Part shown: positions 1-18,770 of the stretch, piece by piece
How positions within the stretch are numbered: position 1 is the stretch's first letter
How the letters are laid out: the number at the start of each line of letters is the position of its first letter
Virus record (IMG/VR): IMGVR_UViG_3300045988_178189
Length of the DNA: 18,770 bases
Strand: one strand, 5' to 3'
DNA from: a virus
The notes under the pieces: generated by a model
The model's input: only the letters and a program-made list of their open reading frames with translations
The model's database searches: none
What the model was told of the DNA's origin: nothing
Position numbers and translations under genes: made by a program

Positions 1-99
1 CATGCACATACCAAATAGCCACAACTCAACACTAACCAATGGCACTACAATGCAAACAAATGTTTTGGTATTGCAATGGTATAGTATTTGTGGTATACT
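1..99. repeat. Left inverted terminal repeat (99 bp), perfect reverse complement of 18672-18770
   Basis: Reverse-complementing the last 99 nt of the window reproduces nt 1-99 exactly. The match breaks at nt 100 (a, against t in the mirror). Confidence 0.95.
71..99 (+). promoter_or_regulatory. Sigma-A-type promoter embedded in the left ITR (TTGCAA - 17 nt - TGgTATACT), directing rightward transcription
   Basis: -35 ttgcaa at 71-76, a 17-nt spacer, and an extended -10 tgg tatact at 91-99. A strong RBS (aaggaggg, 113-121) and an ATG at 131 follow. Confidence 0.55.
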
Positions 100-130
100 A
101 ATACCATCAATTGAAAAGGAGGGTTATATT

Positions 131-280
131 ATGGAAAAAACAATTGATAAATATCTTAATAATTTAGATGTTGAAGTAGCATATTTAAAATATGTAGCTG
201 AACAACTAAAATTATTAAATGAAGAATTAAAAGAAACAGAAAGAGGTGTAAAAGATGAATCAAGTGCTACTAGTAGGTAG
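131..280 (+). CDS. Small hypothetical protein (49 aa, predicted coiled-coil). This is the listed ORF 2..280 re-started at an internal ATG.
   Basis: An ATG at 131 sits 7 nt after a strong RBS (aaaggaggg). The listed start at nt 2 lies inside the ITR with no RBS and is implausible. Confidence 0.45.
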   Translation: MEKTIDKYLNNLDVEVAYLKYVAEQLKLLNEELKETERGVKDESSATSR

Positions 281-554
281 AATTACTAATAATATTAAAA
301 TACAAGAAACAGAAGAAAATACAAAATATATTGTAGTAAGATTATCAGTTCCAAGGTCTTTTAAAAATTCTGAGGGTGTATATGATAATGATTATGTAAA
401 TGTAAAATTTACAGGTCAAATTGCTGAACAATGTTCGTCTTATATTGAAAAAGGTGATATGATAGGTGTTAAAGGAAGATTATCAGCAATTAAAGATGAT
501 AAGATAGAAGTATTTGCTGAAAAGGTAACTTTTTTATCAAATAAAAGAAAATGA
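255..554 (+). CDS. ssb: Bacterial-type single-stranded DNA-binding protein (OB-fold SSB, 99 aa, no acidic C-terminal tail)
   Basis: The N-terminus MNQVLLVGRITNN... follows the canonical bacterial SSB pattern (MNxVxLxGRLTxDPEL..., ...GxLxxVxGRL...). RBS gaaagaggtg precedes the ATG. Confidence 0.7.
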   Translation: MNQVLLVGRITNNIKIQETEENTKYIVVRLSVPRSFKNSEGVYDNDYVNVKFTGQIAEQCSSYIEKGDMIGVKGRLSAIKDDKIEVFAEKVTFLSNKRK

Positions 555-566
555 GGTTGAATAAAA

Positions 567-923
567 ATGAAAAAAATAACAAAAAAGGATTTATATATAA
601 CACTTGAGTATTTTAAAGGTAAAAAACAATACTTATTTGCAACTTTTAAAGGTGATATAGAACATTATATTGATATTTTAGAAAATACTGATTTAACAAC
701 ACGAGAAGAACATATCAGCAATACTTGCAGATATATAAATATTTTTAAAGTATTATCAAATGGGTTTAAAATAAATGATAGTAGCTATTATTTTAATAAT
801 AAAACTATTATCTACCAAATTGATGTTTATAAATATGTTTATATTATCTTATATCAACCAAATATAAATAGTATTGTAATATTTGAACATGATAAAAGTG
901 AGGTACTAAATAATGATAAATAG
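567..923 (+). CDS. Hypothetical protein (118 aa)
   Basis: ORF with RBS (gaggttga) and AT-rich codon usage consistent with its neighbours. Confidence 0.5.
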   Translation: MKKITKKDLYITLEYFKGKKQYLFATFKGDIEHYIDILENTDLTTREEHISNTCRYINIFKVLSNGFKINDSSYYFNNKTIIYQIDVYKYVYIILYQPNINSIVIFEHDKSEVLNNDK

Positions 924-1179
924 AAAAAAATTAGCTAGATTTTTATATAATCAATATTGTGATAGTGATACATTATTTATAAAATCTTGTACATTGTACG
1001 CAGTAACAAAAAATAATAAGAAAATAGATAATAGCTTAAATGAATATGCATATGCACTTATGAAATATGAAATTTACCAAACTAATGAAAATTACGATGA
1101 GGTTATGGATAAATTAGTAGATTTACTAAAGGTAATGAAAATATATAAGATTTGGATAAAATTAGCAAATGAACTATAA
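913..1179 (+). CDS. Hypothetical protein (88 aa)
   Basis: ORF with RBS (gtgaggt) that overlaps the end of the upstream gene, suggesting translational coupling. Confidence 0.45.
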   Translation: MINRKKLARFLYNQYCDSDTLFIKSCTLYAVTKNNKKIDNSLNEYAYALMKYEIYQTNENYDEVMDKLVDLLKVMKIYKIWIKLANEL

Positions 1180-1487: not shown

Positions 1488-1636
1488 TACCTATACAGAC
1501 AATTGTATGATAGATTTAGCAACATTTTTACTCAATGAAAAATACGAACAATTGTGTATAGATAGTAATAAGTAAATGGTAACAGATGTTACCACAGAAT
1601 TTCTATATACAAAAGGCACTTTTTATAGAAAAAGCA

Positions 1637-1667
1637 AAAGACACAAAATTTTTAATTTCGTGTCTTT
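1637..1667. terminator. Candidate bidirectional hairpin (aaagacac-15 nt-gtgtcttt) in the convergent intergenic region
   Basis: 8-bp perfect stem. On the - strand it is followed by tgctttttct, and on the + strand by agaataatttt. It lies between the convergent + operon (ends 1444) and the polymerase gene (ends 1810). Confidence 0.3.
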
Positions 1668-1809
1668 AGAATAATTTTAATTGACGATGTTCTAATTTGC
1701 AATATTCAAGTGATTTTCCCCACTAAAATGTAAAGGCATGGTCTCCCATGGATAAATCCTTTAAGCAAATAAATAATGCTAAATTAGGTCCTCAATTACT
1801 TATATTATA

Positions 1810-3531
1810 TCACTTAGGGCTTGTAATTGTAAAGGGTGTATTAACTAAAACAACACCACCTTTAACATTTTTAGGTTTTAGTTTTAAGTCGCTTGTAAAT
1901 CCATATCTAAAATTTTCCCATGTAACAGTCTCTTTTACCGCTGGATTCATACCAGCACATTTAACATCAAATTTCCAAGTATCAGATTTTTCATCATAAA
2001 TCTCCTCAATATAAGTTTTAGCTCGTAAGAATCTAGCACGTCTAGGGTTACTTTCTAATTTAAAATATCCAAGTTTTAGATCATCAATAGGTATATTAGG
2101 TTTTTCGCCACATTTACAAACATGAAGAGAGTCTGTATCTGCATACGCAAAAACATCTATACATGCAACAGCTGATCGGATAGTTAAATCTCTTGCCCAA
2201 GCAGTAATAAAGCATGCTAGGGCAGTATAAACAGGTTCTCTAGGCTTATCCTCTACTGTTTCATATCCAATACTCTCATCTTCTTTTAGAAAAGGTATTT
2301 TGCTACTTGTTTTAGTAGCACTTGCCATTTTACCATAGATATTATTAAGCATAAGTTTAGCAATTGTACGCATAACTTTATTACCAGTTTTAGTAGCTTC
2401 CATTTTAACATTGTTCCAATAATCAATATATGAATTAAACATATCGAATGATGCATTAAACTTATATCCATCAATGTATTCAATAGTAAAAATATCGTAC
2501 ATATCGCAAAATAATTTAAAATCTACACTTGTTAAGTATATTTCGAGTGGTTCTAGTCCATCTGTATATTCTGTTATATATTCTGTTGCAGAAAATATTC
2601 TGTTATGCTTATCTTGAATACAAGGAAGCTTATTTTTCTTTAACTTAAATGTTACTAGAATATGACAAATATAAAGTGGATATTCTGGATCATCTACATA
2701 TTTACCTTGATAATATTTTGGAATACCTCTAGGTAGTAGACAATACCTCATACGTGATGGATATAACGAGTTTACATCATATACTTCCATTTCTCCAAGG
2801 TCCACATTTTGGAATCTCGGATTAACATAGCACCATCCACCTCGGTAAGATTTTCTAATAAAATCATCTATATTTTGTTCAAGTACGGGAAACATTTCCC
2901 TAAATGGTATCATAGACATAACACTAGCTAGTGCGTCTGCCCCAATAGTCATTTTATCAAGACCTTGGGCAAATTGTTGATTAAGTGCCATAGCAACAAT
3001 TTTTGTATCGTGCATAACATATTCTTTTTCTATTTCTGTAAGTTGATATCCAATTGGTCTATCCTTATTATAATCAATTTCTAACTTATTTATAGGTAGT
3101 CCAAAGTCCTTAGGTATTTTTTCAACTGGGGTAGGTATTTTCTTATAGCTATCTAGAAATTTTATCCTAACACCTTTTTTTATCTTTACTTCAATAGCAT
3201 AAAAGACCCCTAAGCCACTAATAAGGGTTGTAAAAGATTTCTCGGGCATACGTTTTCCACCCTCATGATATATGTACCCATGTGTTAAAATGTAATAAAG
3301 GATAAATTGTGAATCGAAACGCAAATTATGAAAATATACAGTACAACTACCAAGATGTTCAAGTTCTATAAAAAAATCTTCAATGGTAAGTCCTACAATA
3401 GTATTATCTTCATTTCCTATCTCAGAGATAGAAAAACACCAAACTCGACAATCGTCAAGTTTAGTGGTAGTTTCAAAGTCAGCAACGTACGATCTAGAGC
3501 AAATCTTTAATGTCTGTTTTTTCTCTTGCAT
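1810..3531 (-). CDS. Protein-primed family-B DNA polymerase (phi29 gp2-like), 573 aa from the RBS-supported ATG
   Basis: Exo I motif DFETTT with adjacent DCRVW. Exo II YFHNLRFD. NSLYP motif. Kx3NSxYG motif KLMLNNIYGK. YxDTDS motif YADTDSLH. KCAGM motif. Size matches phi29 pol (about 575 aa). The internal Met17 is preceded by aaggaga plus 6 nt, so the start was moved from 3579 to 3531. Confidence 0.95.
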   Translation of the reverse strand: MQEKKQTLKICSRSYVADFETTTKLDDCRVWCFSISEIGNEDNTIVGLTIEDFFIELEHLGSCTVYFHNLRFDSQFILYYILTHGYIYHEGGKRMPEKSFTTLISGLGVFYAIEVKIKKGVRIKFLDSYKKIPTPVEKIPKDFGLPINKLEIDYNKDRPIGYQLTEIEKEYVMHDTKIVAMALNQQFAQGLDKMTIGADALASVMSMIPFREMFPVLEQNIDDFIRKSYRGGWCYVNPRFQNVDLGEMEVYDVNSLYPSRMRYCLLPRGIPKYYQGKYVDDPEYPLYICHILVTFKLKKNKLPCIQDKHNRIFSATEYITEYTDGLEPLEIYLTSVDFKLFCDMYDIFTIEYIDGYKFNASFDMFNSYIDYWNNVKMEATKTGNKVMRTIAKLMLNNIYGKMASATKTSSKIPFLKEDESIGYETVEDKPREPVYTALACFITAWARDLTIRSAVACIDVFAYADTDSLHVCKCGEKPNIPIDDLKLGYFKLESNPRRARFLRAKTYIEEIYDEKSDTWKFDVKCAGMNPAVKETVTWENFRYGFTSDLKLKPKNVKGGVVLVNTPFTITSPK

Positions 3532-4573
3532 ATTTTCTCCTTGTTTTTTTATAATGTATTCTATCTTGATATTCAGCATTGTTCCTTAGCATTTCCATAG
3601 TAATAGCACCAATTAAATAAGGTATTTCCTCATCTTTATTAAGGTCAATATAATGATTACTGTCTATATCAACTCTAATACCACCAAGGCTACCTTTTTT
3701 ATATTCTTCTGGTATTGCAAATACATTTAATCCCTCTAGGTATTCTTTTGCAGATTCTGCTTGTTCCATTGTAACCTTATCTGGGTTAACTTGTTCAACA
3801 AAATTAACTAAATGAGTGGTCATATAACTAAGGACGTTCATCATTTCTACTTCATCATAGATATAGGTAAAATCAGAAAATTCTTCTGATTCAAAGTAAG
3901 CCATAAATTCATCAACAGAAAGACTTTGTATTAAATTACATAGTGGTTCTGCTAAGTTACCAAACATATTTCTTAGGGCTTGAGTATAATTTGATTGCAT
4001 TTGTTTTTGTTTCTTTTTAAGAGACTTAGCACTCTGATATTTTTTAATGGCATAGCTAAATTTTTTCCAAGTACCAGCACTTGTTATGTATTCAGTATTT
4101 AAGTGTATAGGTTTATAAGATGAATAATCATAAACAAGCCTACCTTGAGGTACATGAGCAGAGTGTATTATAGTAGCAAGTCTTGTTTGTTGTTTTTTAC
4201 CTTTAACGGACACTTTAACTTGCTTAAAAATTTGAGCTTGCCTTCTGTTATAAGCATTTCTTTTAGCAATAATTCTTTTTATTTGTAAGTATTCGTCTTT
4301 TGGAATAGCAAAAGGCACTTCCAAACCTTTTTCACTAAAATATCTAGAAACAATTCCACCCTTGACATAAGCATGAGTGCCTCTAAGTAGAAATACTTTT
4401 AAATTTCGCTTGTAGGTATTTAATTCAGCCCTTGAGGTAAATTCGCTCGGTTTTTTAATTTTAAATTTGGCATTAACATTAAATGTTTCTTTTAATCTAG
4501 TCTTTTTAGATCTCGCACTAGCATTATGACTATAAAGCCACTTTTTTTCTTTACTTGATATTCTTAAAGCCAT
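3494..4573 (-). CDS. Putative terminal protein (primer protein for replication), 359 aa, basic N-terminus
   Basis: It sits immediately upstream of the polymerase and overlaps it by 38 bp, as gene 3-gene 2 do in phi29. The N-terminal half is Lys/Arg-rich. An acidic segment ...FESEEFSDFTYIYDEVEMMNVLSY... resembles the region around the priming Ser of phi29 TP as I recall it. No database check was possible. Confidence 0.5.
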   Translation of the reverse strand: MALRISSKEKKWLYSHNASARSKKTRLKETFNVNAKFKIKKPSEFTSRAELNTYKRNLKVFLLRGTHAYVKGGIVSRYFSEKGLEVPFAIPKDEYLQIKRIIAKRNAYNRRQAQIFKQVKVSVKGKKQQTRLATIIHSAHVPQGRLVYDYSSYKPIHLNTEYITSAGTWKKFSYAIKKYQSAKSLKKKQKQMQSNYTQALRNMFGNLAEPLCNLIQSLSVDEFMAYFESEEFSDFTYIYDEVEMMNVLSYMTTHLVNFVEQVNPDKVTMEQAESAKEYLEGLNVFAIPEEYKKGSLGGIRVDIDSNHYIDLNKDEEIPYLIGAITMEMLRNNAEYQDRIHYKKTRRKYAREKTDIKDLL

Positions 4574-4590: not shown

Positions 4591-4623
4591 AAAATAAAAT
4601 AAGGGAGATTTTAAATCCCCCTT
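4591..4623 (-). terminator. Intra-operon intrinsic terminator or attenuator between the p5-like SSB gene and the TP gene
   Basis: On the - strand: caagggggatttaaaatctccctt followed by attttatttt. The stem pairs 7 of 8 bp through a GC-rich core. Confidence 0.45.
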
Positions 4624-4638
4624 GCACAAATATTTTAA

Positions 4639-5049
4639 CTAAATGGTTTTAATTACGAATGTTTTACCACCATTTTTGATTCCAACTTCTTCAACTTTAA
4701 TTTTAACTGGGTTAGTCCATGTACTAGGTTCTCCCATAATTGCTAGAAATTGTCCAAGACTTCTATAAAGTCCTTTAGATCCAGAAGCATAAGTTTTACC
4801 ATCTTTATCAATTAAGATAACACGATATTTATCTTCTAGAGTACCATTTTCATCATCAATAGTTTCAAATTTTTGTACTAATACATCTTTAAGTTCAATT
4901 TCAGTATTTAATTTATCCGAAACACGATAATCGCAGTTACCAAGTAAATTAAATAATTTCTTTTTATCTTCTTCAGTATCAATAGTCATAGAGCAATACA
5001 TTTGTTTTGAGTTATTATCCATTTCTTCTATTAATGTTAAATTATTCAT
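4639..5049 (-). CDS. Putative phage-type SSB (phi29 p5-like), 136 aa
   Basis: It lies upstream of TP and pol, as phi29 gene 5 does. Segments (TIDTEEDKKKLFN..., ...DGKTYASGSKGLYRSLGQFLAI..., VKIKVEEVGIKNGGKTFVI) look alignable with phi29 p5 as recalled from memory. A strong RBS gaggtgg sits 6 nt before the ATG. Needs an HHpred/BLAST check. Confidence 0.45.
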   Translation of the reverse strand: MNNLTLIEEMDNNSKQMYCSMTIDTEEDKKKLFNLLGNCDYRVSDKLNTEIELKDVLVQKFETIDDENGTLEDKYRVILIDKDGKTYASGSKGLYRSLGQFLAIMGEPSTWTNPVKIKVEEVGIKNGGKTFVIKTI

Positions 5050-5107
5050 GTCTTTTCCACCTCACTTTCATTTAAAATTTTTTCTAAGGGATAAATATTA
5101 ATTAATA

Positions 5108-5202
5108 TTACAAGCAGAAATTTTTACCAAAACTCCCTTAAAGATTTTGTCAAGCACTAGAAAGAGGTGTTCTTTATTAATACTTATATTTTCTGCTTGT
5201 AA
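5108..5202. repeat. Long-range inverted repeat IR-A: 13-bp arms (5108-5120 ttacaagcagaaa / 5190-5202 tttctgcttgtaa) enclosing 69 nt
   Basis: The arms are exact reverse complements. The repeat lies in the leader about 50-150 nt upstream of the p5-like gene. Confidence 0.8.
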
Positions 5203-5254
5203 ATTAAATATATCACTTAAGTAAAAATATTAAAGCCACATTTTAACTAAAATA

Positions 5255-5296
5255 ACCTTAAGATTTCTTAAGGTTATTATTAAGATTTCTTAAGGT
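5255..5296. repeat. Two tandem copies of an 18-bp palindrome ccttaag-attt-cttaagg (second copy attaag...cttaagg), centres 24 bp apart
   Basis: First copy at 5257-5274, second at 5281-5296. As RNA on the - strand the second hairpin is followed by auuuuaguu. As DNA they are candidate dimer-binding operators. Confidence 0.8.
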
Positions 5297-5409
5297 ATTA
5301 GGGCGATAAAGAAAGTGAGGTTAAACACCCTATTAATATTATAACAAATGTTCGTATTGTTTACAATGAAAAAAGCCCTTATAGAGCATTTTTTCATAAA
5401 TCAAAATAA

Positions 5410-5486
5410 GCAACTGAGATAGGTTATGATTTTGCAGGTTTCGGAGAAATATAAGAAGAAAAAAGTCTTATATTTATCTCAGTTGC
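5410..5486. repeat. Long-range inverted repeat IR-B: 12-bp arms (5410-5421 gcaactgagata / 5475-5486 tatctcagttgc) enclosing 53 nt, with a nested 9-bp stem (aatataaga / tcttatatt)
   Basis: The arms are exact reverse complements. The predicted +1 of promoter P2 falls at or next to the 5475-5486 arm, so the element would sit at the 5' end of that transcript. Confidence 0.8.
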
Positions 5487-5492
5487 AAACAT

Positions 5493-5521
5493 ATAATAGC
5501 ATATTTTAATAAGGTTGTCAA
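5493..5521 (-). promoter_or_regulatory. Promoter P2 for the replication operon: TTGACA - 17 nt - TGcTATTAT on the - strand
   Basis: The reverse complement of 5493-5521 reads ttgaca accttattaaaatatgc tattat, a consensus -35, 17-nt spacer and extended -10. Confidence 0.55.
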
Positions 5522-5566
5522 ATTTTTACTAGTATATAAAAATTAGATAGATTTATCATTATAAAT

Positions 5567-5595
5567 ATTATATCAGAGTATTGTCAATATGTCAA
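5567..5595 (-). promoter_or_regulatory. Promoter P1: perfect consensus TTGACA - 17 nt - TATAAT on the - strand, 74 bp upstream of P2
   Basis: The reverse complement of 5567-5595 reads ttgaca tattgacaatactctga tataat. A second ttgaca copy sits 8 nt downstream as a tgtcaata tandem. Confidence 0.6.
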
Positions 5596-5620
5596 TAAAA
5601 AATTGCACTTTTGTGCAATT
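5591..5620 (-). terminator. Hairpin terminator after the packaging ATPase (palindrome aattgcac-tttt-gtgcaatt with a U-tract overlapping the P1 -35)
   Basis: A perfect 20-bp palindrome at 5601-5620. On the - strand it is followed by ttttattgac. It lies about 50 nt downstream of the ATPase stop. The stem is AT-rich. Confidence 0.4.
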
Positions 5621-5669
5621 TTTATAGTAACCAGCAAGGGGGTGGCTACAAGATAAGTATATCATCTAT

Positions 5670-6659
5670 CTATTTTATATTCAAGTATTTTTGAACATTT
5701 TCCATGTAACCTTTTATTTTAATATCTTCATAATATAAAAAACCATAAGTATAAGCATTTTTAAGCATATCCATAAAGTGAGAATTAGATTTTAATATTA
5801 GATAATTAGGTTGTAAATGATCCACAGTTATACAATACATTGATACATTAGGATTATACTTTCTAGAGGCATAAATTTTACCCTCTTTTACATCAACCCA
5901 TATTCCTATTACTACTTTATCAAATTTTATATTGAATCTATTAATAGCAGTATTACTTTTCTTAGAGATAAAATTATAATTATCTTCTATAAATTCATTA
6001 TCAATTGCGTATCTATCATATCCAGTACCTTTTACAAGTTCTGCAAAATCGGTACATTTTTTAACTTCTCGATATTCTTTTGTATCTGTTACTTCTACTA
6101 TTAATTGATTATTAATTTTATTAAATCTTCCCTTTAATTTTATGTTCCACTCTCTAAAATAAGGATTGTTTTGACTTATTGAGTTAGCCATCATAAATAC
6201 TTTAACTCGTCTTAGTCTGGCGATAGTTTCGTATAGGTCAAAAAGACGGAATACCTCATTATTAAGATAGTGATAATTTGATCCTCTAGGTATTAAAAAT
6301 TCATCAAATGCTATTGCCCATACCCCAGAATAGTTAACAGACTTTTTGGTAATACCTTTTGATAGAGGTATACCAAAACCCATAAGCTTTTTATCACAAT
6401 ATAATTTTTTACCTTTAACAGTTAGTTCATGCTCAGGAAATTCATTATTTTTTATTATATCAGAGAAGAACTCGTCAAAATCATCAAACTCAGTTTCATA
6501 TCTTCTTATCCATACAAATTGTTCCCCAGTTTTTATAAATTTTTTAATAAATAATTTCTTTATACTATAAGTTTTACCATTACCACGTTCTCCAATAATC
6601 ATGCTCCATAGATAGTCAAAGGATAATAGCTTATAGGGTAAATACCAAATATCGTTCAT
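5670..6659 (-). CDS. DNA encapsidation (packaging) ATPase, phi29 gp16-like, 329 aa
   Basis: Walker A GERGNGKT and Walker B-like AIAFDEF. The N-terminal block ...LLSFDYLWSMIIGERGNGKTYSIK...KFIKTGEQFVWIRRYETEF matches the gp16 pattern. It is the last late gene, as in phi29. Confidence 0.9.
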   Translation of the reverse strand: MNDIWYLPYKLLSFDYLWSMIIGERGNGKTYSIKKLFIKKFIKTGEQFVWIRRYETEFDDFDEFFSDIIKNNEFPEHELTVKGKKLYCDKKLMGFGIPLSKGITKKSVNYSGVWAIAFDEFLIPRGSNYHYLNNEVFRLFDLYETIARLRRVKVFMMANSISQNNPYFREWNIKLKGRFNKINNQLIVEVTDTKEYREVKKCTDFAELVKGTGYDRYAIDNEFIEDNYNFISKKSNTAINRFNIKFDKVVIGIWVDVKEGKIYASRKYNPNVSMYCITVDHLQPNYLILKSNSHFMDMLKNAYTYGFLYYEDIKIKGYMENVQKYLNIK

Positions 6660-6660
6660 A

Positions 6661-7293
6661 TTACACGCTCCATTTCAAGACACCACACAATGATAAAGGC
6701 ATTATATCTTTTTTATCTATTGGTGGCTCAGGAGGGATATATGGGGTAAACTCTTTCCAATTATACCCATCACTTTTATAGACATTAGTATCATTAATAC
6801 CTAAGGCATTATAAGAGTGATATTCATTTTTTAAGGTATATCCTTTACCTAAATCTCCATAACCTTGATATTTTCCTTTACCTATAATTAAATGACAATG
6901 ATCCACAGTACCTATTCCGGTTGTCCCAGTATGGCTAAAAACATCTCCTTGATTTCTTGTATCTCCAATTTTATAACTCGAAAAATTATCATCATGTGAG
7001 ACAGAAATAGTTATATAATCAACAGTTCCATCAATAAAATTTACTTTATTTATACTTTCCCAACAAACAGTAGGGGTATTAGTTGATAAAGACCCAACAT
7101 AAACACATTTTATATCACATGGTGCATATAAAGGAGATTTTAATATTTGTCCTGTGGTAGGGGTCCAATTTACTATATCAATTATGTATCTACCATTATG
7201 TCCAGATTCTCCATTAGTAACATATAGATTAGGTAGTGGAAATAATGCATTTTGTAGACCATTTTCTCCAACCATTTTTTGATTCGGTGTCAT
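6661..7293 (-). CDS. Putative M23/LAS-family metallopeptidase (possibly a virion-associated cell-wall hydrolase), 210 aa
   Basis: The segment SHTGTTGIGTVDHCHLI resembles the M23 signature G-TG-STGPHLHF (HxH zinc/catalytic motif). It is adjacent to the endolysin. Confidence 0.4.
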   Translation of the reverse strand: MTPNQKMVGENGLQNALFPLPNLYVTNGESGHNGRYIIDIVNWTPTTGQILKSPLYAPCDIKCVYVGSLSTNTPTVCWESINKVNFIDGTVDYITISVSHDDNFSSYKIGDTRNQGDVFSHTGTTGIGTVDHCHLIIGKGKYQGYGDLGKGYTLKNEYHSYNALGINDTNVYKSDGYNWKEFTPYIPPEPPIDKKDIMPLSLCGVLKWSV

Positions 7294-8107: not shown

Positions 8108-8278
8108 CTAGTCCTCCTTTCTGGTAAAAAAATAAGTGATGATCGCTCCGTAACTAGTACAATATAATGCTACTATTTCAGTAGGGGGATTAATATTTGG
8201 TACAAGTAAAAGTACCATTAATCCAATAGTCATTATAATTGTAACAAAGCTTTTAACATCAATCCATGCTTTTTTCAT
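8108..8278 (-). CDS. Holin (56 aa, two TM segments, charged C-terminus), absent from the supplied ORF track
   Basis: Manual translation of the - strand gives MKKAWIDVKSFVTIIMTIGLMVLLLVPNINPPTEIVALYCTSYGAIITYFFTRKED*. RBS gaggag sits 5 nt upstream. Its last codons aggaggac-tag form the RBS of the endolysin, a classic holin-endolysin coupling. Confidence 0.6.
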   Translation of the reverse strand: MKKAWIDVKSFVTIIMTIGLMVLLLVPNINPPTEIVALYCTSYGAIITYFFTRKED

Positions 8279-18208: not shown

Positions 18209-18646
18209 TTATAAATTTAATTCATCTAATGTATAGTCTTTATCTAATTTCATACCTTTATACATAGTGTTAGGTTTAAAACTAGGTAAATTTATACAAC
18301 CACGTATATTTTTATTTAAATCTTTATACATTATTGATATATACTCATTACCATGATAAGTATCCTTTGTAATATGTAATATTTTATCCCTAAAAGGTCC
18401 TATTATACCTTTTAAATATTCCTTTTCTACTTTATCTAAAATATTATATATACACACTAGAAAACTATACTTAAAAGTAGGTGTTGTAAATGATAAGTAA
18501 AAACCCTCATCACTTCTATACATATAATTTAAATCGGAACAACCTATTTTATAATAATGTCTATCATGATATATAATTTCATCGGGCATTAATCCCCCCG
18601 TATGCCACCTATAATATAAATTACAAGCAGAGATATTTTGTCTCAT
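18209..18646 (-). CDS. First right-end early protein (145 aa from the RBS-supported ATG; positional analogue of phi29 gene 17)
   Basis: The listed ORF starts inside the ITR. Internal Met42 (MRQNISAC...) is preceded by aaaggagga plus 6 nt, just downstream of the ITR promoter. Confidence 0.5.
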   Translation of the reverse strand: MRQNISACNLYYRWHTGGLMPDEIIYHDRHYYKIGCSDLNYMYRSDEGFYLSFTTPTFKYSFLVCIYNILDKVEKEYLKGIIGPFRDKILHITKDTYHGNEYISIMYKDLNKNIRGCINLPSFKPNTMYKGMKLDKDYTLDELNL

Positions 18647-18671
18647 AACTATTCCTCCTTTCGATACATAA

Positions 18672-18700
18672 AGTATACCACAAATACTATACCATTGCAA
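18672..18700 (-). promoter_or_regulatory. Mirror copy of the ITR promoter (TTGCAA - 17 nt - TGgTATACT) directing leftward transcription of the right-end early operon
   Basis: Identical to 71-99 by ITR symmetry. The downstream sequence diverges, leading to RBS aaaggagga and the ATG at 18646. Confidence 0.55.
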
Positions 18701-18770
18701 TACCAAAACATTTGTTTGCATTGTAGTGCCATTGGTTAGTGTTGAGTTGTGGCTATTTGGTATGTGCATG
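18672..18770. repeat. Right inverted terminal repeat (99 bp)
   Basis: Exact reverse complement of 1-99. Confidence 0.95.

What the first reader, a model, noticed from the sequence alone, without database searches (positions are those of the whole stretch)
5050..5669. 620-bp non-coding island with tandem consensus promoters and three structured elements: a candidate pRNA-like ncRNA or regulatory leader
This is the largest gap in a tightly packed genome, located right after the packaging ATPase. Two near-perfect sigma-A promoters (P1 5567-5595, P2 5493-5521) fire leftward. The P2 transcript would begin with a 12-bp stem enclosing a nested 9-bp stem (IR-B). It is followed by two tandem ccttaag-N4-cttaagg hairpins, the second with a U-tract, and then by a 13-bp long-range stem (IR-A) just upstream of the p5-like gene's RBS. 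A phage with a gp10-like portal and gp16-like ATPase is expected to need a prohead RNA, and no pRNA gene is evident at the termini, where phi29 keeps its own. This region is the best candidate for one. Alternatively it could be an attenuator-controlled leader for the replication operon.
Basis: partly seen in the sequence, partly recalled or inferred. Interest (0 to 1): 0.8.

Follow-up and report, generated by a model that had tools for sequence, protein, structure and literature searches.

The report
Replication-operon control region, not a pRNA
The 620-base gap after the packaging ATPase of this phi29-like phage is a conserved control region for the replication genes, made of small RNA cassettes, a phased DNA repeat array and a knotted mRNA leader, while the phage's likely packaging RNA lies elsewhere, just after the DNA polymerase gene.

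Summary
The described features are all present: the largest non-coding gap of the genome, consensus leftward promoters, IR-B, the CTTAAG hairpins and IR-A.

The pRNA reading is not supported. A better pRNA candidate lies at 1678-1804 (- strand), directly after the DNA polymerase stop. It has a three-way junction, a bulged arm, complementary bulge and loop, and a 3' hairpin. Three relatives keep it with compensatory changes.

The island is a modular control region found between ATPase and SSB in all 19 related loci recovered from metagenomes (172-620 bp). It holds:
- The late terminator.
- Three promoter-hairpin-terminator cassettes with pyrimidine-rich loops. IR-B is cassette 2. The loop of cassette 3 is complementary to the SSB ribosome-binding site and changes with it.
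- Four CTTAAG hexamers at fixed -50/-60/-70/-80 from the -10 box of a fifth promoter, P4.
- The SSB mRNA leader. IR-A is its 5'-terminal stem, with strong covariation. The IR-A loop pairs with a segment downstream, which gives a pseudoknot ahead of an A/U-rich spacer and the ribosome-binding site.

I propose post-transcriptional control of SSB, analogous to the T4 gene 32 operator, plus factor control of P4. The functions are inferred, not shown.

The parts
5656..5684 (-). P0: TTGAAT-17-TATACT promoter with an extended -10 (TG), overlapping the ATPase stop codon
   Evidence: Read from the sequence. The same TTGAAT-17-TATAAT/TATATT promoter with TG sits at the same place in L002 (3979-4007) and L001 (3976-4004). 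The TGnTATAnT box is seen next to the ATPase stop in most relatives.
5594..5649 (-). RNA1 cassette, about 55 nt. Hairpin 5627-5649 with the C-rich loop CCCCCUUGC, then terminator T1 (arms 5598-5608/5613-5623 plus a U-run). T1 also ends the late operon.
   Evidence: Fold z = -4.60. Inverted repeat I18 pairs 11/11. C-rich motifs such as CCCCCCUUG and CCCCUUUU recur in L001, L034 and L007.
5558..5595 (-). P1 and P1': two overlapping consensus sigma-A-type promoters. They are specific to this window and have no counterpart in relatives.
   Evidence: 12/12 with TG, and 12/12. The alignment shows no counterpart in relatives.
5493..5521 (-). P2: TTGACA-17-TATTAT promoter with TG
   Evidence: The counterpart in L002 is 4096-4124, TTGACT-17-TATATT with TG.
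5366..5487 (-). RNA2 cassette (IR-B), about 120 nt. Outer stem 5475-5486/5410-5421, coaxial inner hairpin 5466-5474/5448-5456, 26-nt unpaired strand 5422-5447 (UCUCCGAAACCU...), and intrinsic terminator T2 5366-5397.
   Evidence: Fold -32.6 kcal/mol, z = -5.83. Terminator-like site 5387..5375. L002, L010 and L011 keep the architecture with an entirely different 12-bp stem (AUGAAACGGGUA/UACCCGUUUCAU). L001 and L006 have a 25-bp closing stem. All share an unpaired CUCY..AAAACCU motif.
5338..5366 (-). P3: TTGTAA-17-TATAAT promoter with TG
   Evidence: Conserved in L002 (4276-4304, 11/12 with TG) and L001 (4267-4295). It is a local conservation peak of about 0.7 in a region that otherwise scores 0.1-0.5.
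5299..5332 (-). 5' hairpin of RNA3: a 7-bp stem (5326-5332/5299-5305) presenting a 20-nt loop. The loop contains ACCUCACUUUC (5308-5321), which is complementary to the SSB ribosome-binding site.
   Evidence: Fold z = -4.95 for 5243-5332. Pair I7 matches 13/14. The exact 11-mer occurs only here and at the SSB ribosome-binding site. The loop covaries with the binding site in L002 and L001. The SSB start region is the best or tied-best target in three genomes.
5251..5296 (-). CTTAAG array: four palindromic hexamers, one degenerate (CTTAAT), spaced 10-12 bp. The array can also fold as the 3' hairpin of RNA3, followed by a weak U-tract (5244-5250).
   Evidence: Identity to relatives is 0.81-0.94. 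The hexamers start at -50/-60/-70/-80 from the P4 -10 hexamer in 9 relatives; in the window they start at -50/-60/-72/-82. The site is scored terminator-like in L001 and L002.
5234..5243 (-). AAATGTGGCT box between the CTTAAG array and P4
   Evidence: It is nearly invariant in the clade with at least 74% ATPase identity. A similar box follows GGTAAC palindromes downstream of the pRNA-like gene in L010, L011 and L185.
5207..5215 (-). P4: an extended -10 element (TGaTATATT) with no good -35. It is the proximal promoter of the SSB-TP-DNA polymerase operon. The predicted transcription start is about 5200.
   Evidence: A TGnTAnnnT box lies 5-7 nt upstream of the IR-A 5' arm in 10 of 13 lineages.
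5190..5202 (-). IR-A 5' arm: stem 1 of the leader pseudoknot, at the 5' end of the P4 transcript
5108..5120 (-). IR-A 3' arm (stem 1)
   Evidence: On a sequence-only MAFFT alignment of 15 leaders, 90.6% of cells are paired against 76.4% in shuffles (0 of 500 reach the observed value). Twelve of 17 pairs change on both sides. Slid controls give 34-52%.
5134..5142 (-). Segment b (UUUAAGGGA) inside the IR-A loop: 5' strand of stem 2
   Evidence: Partner sequences differ by lineage. Examples are TAAGGGA/TCCCTTA, TAGGGTG/CACCCTA, GAGGGT/ACCCTC, AGTGCG/CGCACT, GTAAGTGGT/ACCACTTAC, ACCTCGT/ACGAGGT and CCCGTA/TACGGG.
5085..5091 (-). Segment b' (UCCCUUA): 3' strand of stem 2, just after the AT palindrome
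   Evidence: Duplex energy against 1000 loop shuffles gives p between 0.001 and 0.3 per lineage. Fisher's combined p is 6e-9 over 12 sequences, which form about 9 independent lineages.
5094..5109 (-). Perfect 16-bp AT palindrome AATATTAATTAATATT, between stem 1 and b'. It could be an RNA hairpin or a DNA operator.
   Evidence: Unique in the genome. Identity is 0.98 in close relatives. Distant relatives have different perfect palindromes instead: AATATTATATAATATT, AGTTTTAATTAAAACT and AAATATTTTATAAAATATTT.
5047..5084 (-). A/U-rich spacer (AGAAAAAAUUUUAAAUG), the SSB ribosome-binding site GAAAGUGAGGU (5059-5069) and the start codon (5047-5049)
1678..1804 (-). Outside the finding: a pRNA-like RNA behind the promoter 1833..1804. 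It has a long bulged closing helix and a three-way junction. One arm has a 7-nt bulge and a GAGA loop. The other is a hairpin with a GGAAAA loop. A 14-bp hairpin follows at 1637-1667.
   Evidence: Fold -43.9 kcal/mol, z = -4.80. RNAalifold on 4 sequences gives 25 pairs, 13 with changes on both sides. The covariance model R1 hits L185, which was not used to build it, at E = 4e-17 directly after the polymerase stop.

Best explanation
The island is the control region between the late (structural and packaging) operon and the replication operon (SSB, terminal protein, DNA polymerase) of a phi29-like phage. It is not the prohead RNA gene. Reading the - strand, it has four parts.

1. **Late terminator.** T1 ends the late operon.

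2. **Three small transcription units.** Each has a sigma-A-type promoter with an extended -10, a transcript that begins directly with a stable stem, an exposed pyrimidine-rich (anti-Shine-Dalgarno-like) unpaired segment, and an intrinsic terminator.
   - RNA1 is about 55 nt.
   - RNA2 is about 120 nt and contains IR-B.
   - RNA3 is about 90 nt. Its loop is antisense to the SSB ribosome-binding site.

3. **A DNA-level repeat array.** Four CTTAAG hexamers with a 10-bp period and an AAATGTGGCT box sit at fixed distance upstream of P4. P4 has only an extended -10 and no good -35. The array is most likely the binding site of a transcription factor that controls P4. As RNA, the same array doubles as the weak terminator of RNA3.

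4. **The P4 transcript.** Its first nucleotides form IR-A (stem 1). A G+C-rich segment in the IR-A loop pairs with a segment just past an AT palindrome (stem 2). This gives an H-type pseudoknot at the 5' end of the SSB mRNA. An unstructured A/U-rich spacer and the ribosome-binding site follow.

**Proposed working (inferred).**
- The 5' pseudoknot protects the message.
- The pseudoknot may also nucleate cooperative SSB binding that spreads over the A/U-rich spacer onto the ribosome-binding site, as in T4 gene 32.
- RNA3 masks the same ribosome-binding site, either in trans or in cis on read-through transcripts.
- RNA1 and RNA2 are abundant small RNAs whose targets are unknown, possibly host ribosome-binding sites.

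**Shown:** the anatomy, its conservation, the covariation of IR-A, the statistical support for stem 2 and for the anti-ribosome-binding-site pairing, and the fixed phasing of the array.

**Inferred:** transcript ends, every function, and the identity of any binding protein.
For: **Position.** An ATPase-SSB gap exists in all 19 related loci recovered, with ATPase identity 49-87% and gap length 172-620 bp.

**Promoters and terminators.** Sites in the window are. Sense-strand promoters with TG are conserved at the same relative places in L002 and L001.

**RNA folds.** RNA1 gives z = -4.60, RNA2 z = -5.83 and RNA3 z = -4.95. RNA2 relatives keep the closing stem with a completely different sequence.

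**IR-A.**
- The 5' arm starts 5-7 nt after the -10 hexamer in 10 of 13 lineages, combined p = 2e-9.
- In the covariation test, 90.6% of cells are paired, against 76.4% in shuffles and 34-52% in slid controls. Twelve of 17 pairs change on both sides.

**Stem 2.** Fisher's combined p is 6e-9.

**RNA3 loop against the SSB ribosome-binding site.**
- The pairing is 13/14. The 11-mer is unique to the two sites.
- It covaries across lineages, combined p = 1e-4.
- The SSB start region ranks first of 26 ORFs in L185, first of 24 in L011, and tied first of 36 in the window.

**CTTAAG array.** Identity is 0.81-0.94 while the flanks drop to 0.1-0.5. Hexamers sit at -50/-60/-70/-80 from the -10 hexamer in nine relatives. 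This includes L009 and L037, where a strong terminator and no promoter precede the array.

**No known RNA family.** Rfam gives nothing in the whole window, even at E up to 10.

**Precedent.** The T4 gene 32 operator is a 5' pseudoknot followed by an unstructured UUAAA/UAAA stretch and the ribosome-binding site (PMC535899).
Against: - No transcript data exist. All transcription starts and 3' ends are predictions.
- The nested fold of the whole leader is not unusually stable (z = -0.41).
- A length-only test of stem 2 is weak (p = 0.025). In 28% G+C sequence, short A/U-rich pairings arise easily.
- Pyrimidine-rich loops match purine-rich ribosome-binding sites generically. The RNA3 loop also fits three other ribosome-binding sites in the window. 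The pairing is not significant in L181-L184, L034 and L038.
- No consistent phage target was found for RNA1 or RNA2.
- The G-U versus A-C asymmetry that would prove an RNA-level stem is inconclusive (4 against 2 internal cases).
- L007 has a divergent leader without a clear stem 1 or stem 2.
- No candidate protein for the CTTAAG array was identified.
- phi29-type SSB is not known to regulate its own translation.
Confidence: 0.6

Rival explanations
1. The island, specifically the P2 transcript with IR-B, encodes the prohead RNA of the packaging motor.
For: - RNA2 is driven by the strongest promoter matches in the genome.
- It has a closing helix formed by its 5' end and an internal 3' segment, followed by a 3' hairpin. 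This loosely resembles pRNA domains I and II (PMC5066667).
- It lies next to the ATPase gene.
- phi29-based covariance models are known to miss pRNAs outside the Bacillus phages (PMC6266182). The absence of an Rfam hit is therefore not decisive.
Against: - RNA2 has no three-way junction, no bulged CE-type arm, no D-type hairpin, and no conserved complementary pair of loops.
- It lies in the fastest-evolving part of the island. It has no counterpart in relatives with gaps of 172-283 bp, which have the same ATPase and connector.
- A separate RNA at 1678-1804 has every structural hallmark of pRNA and the phi29-like gene position. It is conserved with compensatory changes.
- The model built from that RNA finds nothing in 5050-5669.
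Confidence: 0.04
2. One long attenuator-controlled leader. P1 and P2 are the real replication-operon promoters. T2 and the CTTAAG hairpins are attenuators that set read-through into SSB. IR-B, the hairpins and IR-A are all parts of a single leader of about 440 nt, and there are no independent small RNAs.
For: - Consensus promoters lie about 440-510 nt upstream of SSB on the same strand.
- The U-tract after the CTTAAG hairpin is interrupted, so read-through is likely.
- The anti-ribosome-binding-site loop of RNA3 could act in cis only on such long transcripts.
Against: - Each terminator is followed by its own conserved promoter with an extended -10: P3 and P4.
- T2 is a strong terminator, with a 14-bp stem and U6.
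- P1 is absent from relatives.
- Distant relatives have only a P0 cassette plus the P4 leader.
- IR-A starts exactly where P4 transcripts would start.
- This rival is not fully exclusive of my model, because read-through transcripts may coexist with the short ones.
Confidence: 0.16
3. A DNA-level reading only. The palindromes (IR-A, the AT palindrome, the CTTAAG array) are protein-binding operators or replication or packaging signals on double-stranded DNA. The predicted RNA structures are by-products.
For: - The CTTAAG array is invariant in sequence rather than covarying. It is phased with the helix and fixed relative to the -10 box.
- The AT palindrome is a perfect palindrome in every lineage, as dimeric operators are.
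- The G-U versus A-C asymmetry is inconclusive.
Against: - The IR-A arms are 21-70 nt apart, with loops of variable length. That is unlike an operator, and the arms covary freely in sequence.
- Stem 2 pairs two non-palindromic segments across IR-A.
- All stems sit exactly at predicted transcript 5' ends.
- T1 and T2 have canonical U-tracts.
- I accept this reading for the CTTAAG array, and possibly for the AT palindrome, as part of my model. I do not accept it for IR-A or IR-B.
Confidence: 0.12

Closest known systems
phi29 prohead RNA (pRNA; Rfam RF00044)
   Same: RNA2 shares only generic traits with pRNA. It is a small non-coding RNA of a phi29-like phage, made from a strong promoter, with a closing helix and a 3' hairpin. 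By contrast, the RNA at 1678-1804 shares the full architecture described in PMC5066667:
- a domain I of about 120 nt with a bulged closing helix;
- a three-way junction;
- an arm with a bulge loop and a hairpin;
- a second hairpin whose loop is complementary to the bulge;
- a short single-stranded linker and a domain-II-like hairpin;
- a gene position beyond the polymerase gene.
   Different: RNA2 has no three-way junction and no interlocking loops, and it is not conserved across the family. Neither RNA scores with the Rfam model. Binding to the prohead or the ATPase is untested for both.
T4 gene 32 translational operator, the autogenous control of a phage single-strand-binding protein
   Same: A pseudoknot lies at the 5' end of the mRNA of a phage SSB gene. 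An unstructured A/U-rich stretch with UUAAA/UAAA motifs follows and runs into the ribosome-binding site (PMC535899; window 5047-5202). The structure is kept while the sequence diverges between relatives, as between T4 and RB69.
   Different: - The sequences are not homologous, and the SSB family is unrelated (phi29 p5-type, Pfam PF17427, rather than gp32).
- Stem 1 is much longer (10-18 bp), with a loop of 12-70 nt.
- An AT-palindrome hairpin sits in the third loop.
- Repression by the SSB is purely hypothetical here.
Small RNAs of Firmicutes with C-rich or anti-Shine-Dalgarno loops, such as RoxS/RsaE (from general knowledge, not tested here)
   Same: They are short RNAs with their own promoter and intrinsic terminator. 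They present unpaired pyrimidine-rich segments in loops that can pair with ribosome-binding sites. Here the segments are CCCCCUU, UUUCUCC and ACCUCACUUUCUUU.
   Different: These RNAs are phage-encoded, arranged in tandem, and evolve fast. Only RNA3 has a supported target, the adjacent SSB gene. There is no sequence similarity to any Rfam family.
5'-terminal stem-loop mRNA stabilisers of Bacillus and other Firmicutes (from general knowledge)
   Same: All five predicted transcripts start with a stem 5-7 nt after the -10 hexamer. A stem at the very 5' end is the arrangement that blocks 5'-end-dependent decay.
   Different: Stability was not measured and the host is unknown. The leader has an extra tertiary pairing that a simple stabiliser does not need.
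Control of phi29 promoters by protein p4, which binds upstream of a promoter lacking a -35 (from general knowledge)
   Same: Repeated sites phased with the helix lie at about -60 to -90 upstream of a promoter that has an extended -10 but no good -35. This sits at the boundary between early and late functions of a phi29-like phage.
   Different: The site sequence differs (CTTAAG hexamers), no p4 homologue was identified, and the regulated genes are the replication genes rather than the late genes.

Membership tests
pRNA (prohead RNA), tested on the finding's RNA2 / IR-B (5366-5487) | Closing helix A formed by the 5' end and a 3' segment of a domain of about 120 nt | tested here: met
   A 12-bp stem joins 5475-5486 and 5410-5421 at the predicted 5' end. 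A closing stem alone is not specific to pRNA.
pRNA (prohead RNA), tested on the finding's RNA2 / IR-B (5366-5487) | Three-way junction joining helix A, a bulged C/E arm and a D hairpin | tested here: not met
   The minimum-energy and centroid folds show one coaxial hairpin plus a 26-nt one-sided loop. The homologues in L002, L010, L011, L001 and L006 show the same.
pRNA (prohead RNA), tested on the finding's RNA2 / IR-B (5366-5487) | Two loops (CE and D) that are mutually complementary and covary, allowing intermolecular ring formation | tested here: not met
   Only trivial U-run/A-run matches exist in the window. No corresponding complementarity exists in L002 or L001 (by inspection).
pRNA (prohead RNA), tested on the finding's RNA2 / IR-B (5366-5487) | Match to the Rfam pRNA covariance model, or to a model of the family's own pRNA-like RNA | tested here: not met
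   No Rfam hit at E up to 10. Model R1 finds nothing in 5050-5669 at E up to 10.
pRNA (prohead RNA), tested on the finding's RNA2 / IR-B (5366-5487) | Present in all relatives that share the connector and the gp16-type ATPase | tested here: not met
   Relatives with gaps of 172-283 bp (L003, L181-L184) have no RNA2-type unit.
pRNA (prohead RNA), tested on the finding's RNA2 / IR-B (5366-5487) | Binds the prohead connector and the ATPase, and is required for packaging | not testable with these tools
   This needs prohead purification and in vitro packaging.
pRNA (prohead RNA), tested on the RNA at 1678-1804 (outside the finding) | Domain I with a bulged helix A, a three-way junction, a bulged arm with hairpin, a second hairpin, then a linker and a domain-II hairpin | tested here: met
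   (z = -4.80). The RNAalifold consensus on 4 sequences has 25 pairs, 13 of them with changes on both sides. The features are as described in PMC5066667.
pRNA (prohead RNA), tested on the RNA at 1678-1804 (outside the finding) | Bulge loop and hairpin loop complementary to each other, with covariation between phages | tested here: inconclusive
   - In the window, AUUUAUCC faces GGGAAAAU, giving 4+3 pairs around one mismatch. L010 has UUCC/GGAA.
- Both loops are nearly invariant within the clade, so there is no covariation there.
- Between distant groups the pairing changes: ACCAC/GUGGU, ACCA/UGGU, UGUCA/UGACA and UCC/GGA. These were read by eye from folds.
pRNA (prohead RNA), tested on the RNA at 1678-1804 (outside the finding) | Own promoter, with the gene lying beyond the polymerase end of the replication operon as in phi29 | tested here: met
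   The promoter 1833..1804 matches 11/12 with TG. The position directly after the polymerase stop holds in the window, L185, L010 and L011.
pRNA (prohead RNA), tested on the RNA at 1678-1804 (outside the finding) | Match to Rfam RF00044 | tested here: not met
   No hit at E up to 10 on 281 nt. phi29-based models also miss the proposed Cp-1 pRNA (PMC6266182).
H-type pseudoknot in an mRNA leader (SSB leader, 5085-5202) | Stem 1 conserved with covariation | tested here: met
   (0 of 500 shuffles reach the observed values; slid controls collapse)..
H-type pseudoknot in an mRNA leader (SSB leader, 5085-5202) | The loop of stem 1 pairs with a segment 3' of stem 1 (stem 2) | tested here: met
   Lineage-specific complementary pairs give Fisher p = 6e-9 on duplex energy. 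The length-only test is weaker, p = 0.025. Whether both stems form at once was not tested.
T4 gene 32-type autogenous operator | A 5' pseudoknot followed by an unstructured A/U-rich stretch that includes the ribosome-binding site of an SSB gene | tested here: met
   Reference anatomy is from PMC535899. In a 28% G+C genome the A/U-rich spacer is weak evidence.
T4 gene 32-type autogenous operator | The SSB binds the operator and represses its own translation | not testable with these tools
   This needs gel-shift and toeprint assays, or in vivo reporter assays.
Small-RNA gene (promoter, structured RNA, intrinsic terminator) | A sense-strand promoter and an intrinsic terminator bracket a stable structure, and the arrangement is conserved in relatives | tested here: met
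   Expression itself was not tested.

The most novel reading that the evidence does not exclude
A phi29-like phage controls its replication proteins with two RNA devices that have not been described for this phage group.

1. A pseudoknotted 5' leader on the SSB mRNA works as an autogenous translational operator. This would be convergent with T4 gene 32, although the SSB family is unrelated.
2. A tandem array of fast-evolving phage small RNAs carries anti-Shine-Dalgarno loops. One of them (RNA3) is a dedicated antisense regulator of the SSB ribosome-binding site. The others target host or phage translation.

In addition, the phage and a large set of gut phi29-like phages would carry a previously unrecognised, Rfam-invisible pRNA next to the polymerase gene. 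This would extend pRNA-dependent packaging beyond the Bacillus phages.
Probability: 0.3. Interest if true: 0.7.

Novelty: new variant of a known kind. Interest (0 to 1): 0.5.

Why it matters
**For annotation.** The obvious big gap next to the ATPase is not where this phage keeps its packaging RNA. The pRNA-like gene sits after the polymerase gene and escapes Rfam.

**For phage biology.**
- The island suggests that small phi29-like phages regulate SSB, terminal protein and polymerase after transcription. They would use a covariation-supported 5' pseudoknot and a small RNA aimed at the ribosome-binding site.
- phi29 itself is known for protein-based (p4/p6) transcriptional control, not for this kind of control.
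- If the SSB represses its own message through the pseudoknot, this would be a second, independent invention of the T4 gene 32 solution.
- The phased CTTAAG array upstream of a promoter without a -35 gives a concrete operator to match to a regulator.

**Side observation.** Current reviews regard pRNA as unique to phi29 and related Bacillus phages (PMC11476376). pRNA-like three-way-junction RNAs next to the polymerase gene in many uncultivated phi29-like phages would widen that distribution.

Tried and rejected
- **DNA searches.** Megablast of 4600-6700 against the phage collection found nothing. Distant blastn of the island gave only short chance matches with E above 0.05.
- **Rfam.** Nothing passed gathering thresholds or E up to 10 on the whole window. 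Nothing was found for 1560-1840 or for 11 related loci.
- **Relatives from a single protein.** The search for relatives in viral contigs found none. An alignment query and exact-protein look-ups were needed instead.
- **Reach of model R1.** Built from three close sequences, R1 cannot reach the distant groups. The only signal was a weak hit (E = 0.3) at the expected place in L112. Homology between the window's pRNA-like RNA and those of the distant groups therefore rests on architecture, not on a model score.
- **RNA2 pair counts.** MAFFT misaligns the 5' arm of RNA2 between the window and L002. I did not run pair counts on RNA2 and rely on separate folds.
- **Targets of RNA2.** The search for phage targets of the conserved RNA2 motif gave 10 matches against 7.2 expected. 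No target start region was consistent across three genomes for RNA1 or RNA2.
- **Stem 2, length only.** The test is weak in AT-rich sequence (p = 0.025). An energy-based test replaced it.
- **RNA versus DNA stem.** The G-U versus A-C asymmetry is inconclusive.
- **A + strand small ORF.** One behind the ribosome-binding-site-like GAAAGTGAGGT at 5311-5321 was rejected. No start codon lies within reach, and the reading frame is not conserved in L002.
- **TGTGGCT in the terminal repeat.** It shares only a 7-mer with the AAATGTGGCT box and was judged to be chance.

Full report
**What the window is.** The 18,770-base window is a complete phi29-like phage genome with 27.6% G+C and 99-bp perfect inverted terminal repeats.
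- The - strand carries, in order: small early genes, then scaffold, major capsid, tail, connector, lysis genes and a gp16-type packaging ATPase (5670-6659). The gap in question follows. After it come a phi29-type SSB gene (4639-5049), the terminal protein gene and a type-B DNA polymerase gene (1810-3579).
- A short + strand block lies at 2-1444.
- No close relative exists among deposited phages. The ATPase is at most 39% identical to those of Enterococcus and Bacillus phi29-like phages.
- Metagenome assemblies hold a graded series of relatives.

**Checking the observation.**
- P1 (5595..5567, 12/12 with TG), an overlapping P1' (5587..5558, 12/12) and P2 (5521..5493, 11/12 with TG) are the three best promoter matches of the genome.
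- IR-B is a perfect 12-bp stem (5475-5486/5410-5421) around a nested stem.
- The CTTAAG unit is a 17-nt direct repeat. One copy forms a perfect 13-bp inverted repeat.
- IR-A has a 13-bp core (5190-5202/5108-5120).
- The gap has no ORF longer than 35 aa.
  - terminator T1 (5598-5623), just after the ATPase gene;
  - a strong intrinsic terminator T2 (5366-5397), right after IR-B;
  - three more promoters, P0 (5684..5656), P3 (5366..5338) and P4 (extended -10 at 5215-5207);
  - a 13/14 complementarity between 5308-5321 and the SSB ribosome-binding site.

**Relatives.** I recovered 19 related loci with ATPase identity from 87% down to 49%.
- All have the same gene order, ATPase then gap then SSB then terminal protein then polymerase.
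- The gap ranges from 172 to 620 bp.
- The SSB-proximal 250 bp of the island is highly conserved. The array-to-AAATGTGGCT stretch scores 0.81-0.94, the IR-A 3' arm 0.8-0.93 and the AT palindrome 0.98.
- The distal 370 bp, holding P1, P2 and IR-B, is barely alignable at 0.1-0.5, except for P3.
- The most distant relatives keep only one small cassette plus the SSB leader.

**IR-A is the 5' stem of the SSB mRNA and part of a pseudoknot.**
- In 10 of 13 lineages an extended -10 box (TGnTAnnnT) lies 5-7 nt upstream of the 5' arm, so the transcript would start at the foot of the stem (combined p = 2e-9 for the stems).
- I tested the stem and the following AT-palindrome hairpin on an alignment of 15 leaders made from sequence alone.
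  - 90.6% of cells are paired, against 76.4% in shuffles. None of 500 shuffles reaches the observed value.
  - 12 of 17 pairs change on both sides.
  - Sliding the partners by 1-3 columns drops pairing to 34-52%.
- In every lineage a G+C-rich segment of the IR-A loop is complementary to the segment just past the palindrome, with a different sequence each time. Examples are TAAGGGA/TCCCTTA, TAGGGTG/CACCCTA, AGTGCG/CGCACT, GTAAGTGGT/ACCACTTAC, ACCTCGT/ACGAGGT and CCCGTA/TACGGG.
- The energy of this pairing beats loop shuffles, with Fisher p = 6e-9. A length-only test is weak, p = 0.025.
- The two pairings cross, which is the topology of an H-type pseudoknot.
- An A/U-rich spacer and the ribosome-binding site follow.
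- This anatomy matches the T4 gene 32 operator: a 5' pseudoknot, then an unstructured UUAAA/UAAA stretch with the ribosome-binding site. There the SSB represses its own translation (PMC535899).
- Autoregulation here is my inference, not a result.

**The 'tandem hairpins' are primarily a DNA array tied to P4.**
- In nine relatives the hexamers start at -50, -60, -70 and -80 from the first base of the P4 -10 hexamer. In the window they start at -50/-60/-72/-82. In L037 the two remaining copies start at -49/-59.
- This holds in L009 and L037 as well. There the sequence between array and promoter has diverged, and a strong terminator with no promoter precedes the array.
- The array does not covary. 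It is nearly invariant, whereas true terminators in the island, such as T2, change sequence freely.
- P4 has no good -35.
- A protein-binding array on one face of the helix at about -60 to -90 is the simplest reading.
- As RNA, the last unit can still act as a weak terminator for P3 transcripts.

**Small RNA cassettes.**
- P0, P2 and P3 are conserved at the same relative places in L002 and L001, always on the sense strand and with TG.
- The three predicted RNAs fold far better than shuffles, with z = -4.6, -5.8 and -5.0.
- Each starts with a stem at the predicted transcription start and ends at a terminator.
- Each exposes a pyrimidine-rich segment: CCCCCUUGC, UUUCUCC and ACCUCACUUUCUUU.
- RNA2 (IR-B) keeps its architecture in L002, L010 and L011 with a wholly different 12-bp stem. 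It shares an unpaired CUCY..AAAACCU motif with L001 and L006. I found no consistent target for it.
- RNA3 has a supported target, the SSB ribosome-binding site.
  - The 11-mer GAAAGTGAGGT occurs only at that site and, as its complement, in the RNA3 loop.
  - The loop changes together with the binding site in L002 (GCGAGG with CCUCG) and in L001 (16 pairs including 3 G-U).
  - Among all start regions, SSB is the best target in L185 (first of 26) and L011 (first of 24). It is tied best in the window (of 36).
  - In L003 the single cassette carries a 10-nt match to the SSB start region.

**Why the island is not the pRNA.**
- pRNA is defined by a domain of about 120 nt with a bulged helix A, a three-way junction, a bulged arm and two stem-loops whose CE and D loops pair between molecules. 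A linker and domain II follow (PMC5066667).
- RNA2 has only the closing helix.
- The 171 nt after the polymerase stop (1628-1798, - strand) sit behind a TTTACA-18-TATAAT promoter with TG. They fold at -43.9 kcal/mol with z = -4.80 into exactly that architecture.
- Relatives keep this fold.
  - L010 and L011 keep it, with 9 pairs changed on both sides.
  - A model built from these sequences finds L185, which was not used to build it, at E = 4e-17 directly after its polymerase stop.
  - With four sequences, 13 of 25 consensus pairs show changes on both sides.
- The bulge (AUUUAUCC) and the hairpin loop (GGGAAAAU) are complementary.
- More distant gut phi29-like phages have the polymerase gene directly before the ATPase gene. 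The gap between the two holds an RNA of the same design. Its bulge and loop complementarity differs by group: ACCAC/GUGGU, ACCA/UGGU, UGUCA/UGACA and UCC/GGA.
- Rfam sees none of these RNAs. This is consistent with the report that phi29-based models miss the proposed Cp-1 pRNA (PMC6266182).
- Packaging function is untested.

**Verdict.** The pRNA interpretation is not supported. The 'regulatory leader' alternative is right in spirit for IR-A, but with a different transcript and mechanism.

The island is best described as the replication-operon control region. It combines the late terminator, tandem small-RNA cassettes (one aimed at the SSB ribosome-binding site), a phased operator-like array and a pseudoknotted SSB leader.

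Its kinds of parts are known. Their combination, and the pseudoknot before a phi29-type SSB gene, are not described, so I rate it a new variant of a known kind with moderate interest.

Noticed in passing
window 1628-1833 (- strand): A pRNA-like RNA lies directly after the DNA polymerase stop, behind the promoter 1833..1804. It has a bulged closing helix, a three-way junction, an arm with a 7-nt bulge and a GAGA loop, a hairpin with a GGAAAA loop, a linker of about 11 nt and a 14-bp hairpin. It folds with z = -4.80. L185 (14270-14396), L010 (5781-5905) and L011 (11915-12039) keep it with compensatory changes. Rfam does not detect it.
   Followed up: yes
L139, L163, L168, L113, L176, L167, L165, L112 and their groups: the gap between the DNA polymerase and ATPase genes (about 2300-2500 in each locus): Distant, mostly human-gut phi29-like phages place the polymerase gene directly before the ATPase gene. 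The gap of about 190 bp holds a comparatively G+C-rich RNA of the same three-way-junction design. Its bulge and hairpin loop are complementary, and the pairing differs by group (ACCAC/GUGGU, ACCA/UGGU, UGUCA/UGACA, UCC/GGA). Helices covary within the L139 group, for example UGAUAU/AUAUCA against UAACAU/AUGUUA. There is no Rfam hit.
   Followed up: partly
window 1576-1595 and 1518-1527; L185 14499-14535; L010 6040-6160; L011 12150-12270: A composite element lies downstream of the pRNA-like gene and is repeated up to three times in L010 and L011. It is a GGTAACAnnTGTTACC palindrome followed by GAAA(A/G)TGTGGC. It mirrors the CTTAAG palindrome plus AAATGTGGCT box upstream of P4, so the two boundaries of the replication module carry similar palindrome-plus-box elements. 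Its function is unknown.
   Followed up: partly
window 5649, 5486, 5332, 5200, 1797 (- strand): All five predicted non-coding or leader transcripts begin with a stable stem 5-7 nt after their -10 hexamer. This consistent design suggests protection of the 5' end.
   Followed up: partly
window 567-923 (+), 913-1179 (+), 8108-8278 (-): The anti-ribosome-binding-site loop of RNA3 also fits the ribosome-binding sites of these three genes, which use the unusual AAGTGAGG/AATGAGG Shine-Dalgarno variant. The duplex energies are -16.9 to -18.9 kcal/mol. RNA3 might therefore act on a small set of genes rather than on SSB alone.
   Followed up: partly
window 255-554 (+): A second, unrelated SSB-like gene (PHROG 44, E = 1.5e-15) lies in the left early block. 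The phage therefore encodes two single-strand-binding proteins.
   Followed up: no
window 1-99 and 18672-18770; ORFs 2-280 (+) and 18209-18769 (-): The inverted terminal repeat is 99 bp and perfect. The first ORF at each end starts inside it, so the two products share their first 33 residues (MHIPNSHNSTLTNGTTMQTNVLVLQWYSICGIL).
   Followed up: no
L003 1247-1444: A relative with 58% ATPase identity carries a 65-aa gene in its lysis region with a Pfam Acb2_Tad1_hairpin hit. That family consists of anti-defence nucleotide sponges. The window has no such hit at the corresponding place.
   Followed up: no
L038 3520-3640: In the 65%-identity relative the place of the CTTAAG array is taken by three tandem GGTAACAnnnGTTACC palindromes. 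The arrangement, tandem palindromes upstream of the SSB promoter, is kept while the sequence is replaced.
   Followed up: no
window 5122-5147 versus 5241-5266: The part of the IR-A loop that holds segment b (AAAUCUUUAAGGGAGUUUUGGUAAAA) is 73% identical to the last CTTAAG unit plus its tail. In L034 it is an exact ATCTTAAGG. The stem-2 strand may therefore have arisen from a duplicated CTTAAG unit, or it may be a fifth site downstream of P4.
   Followed up: no
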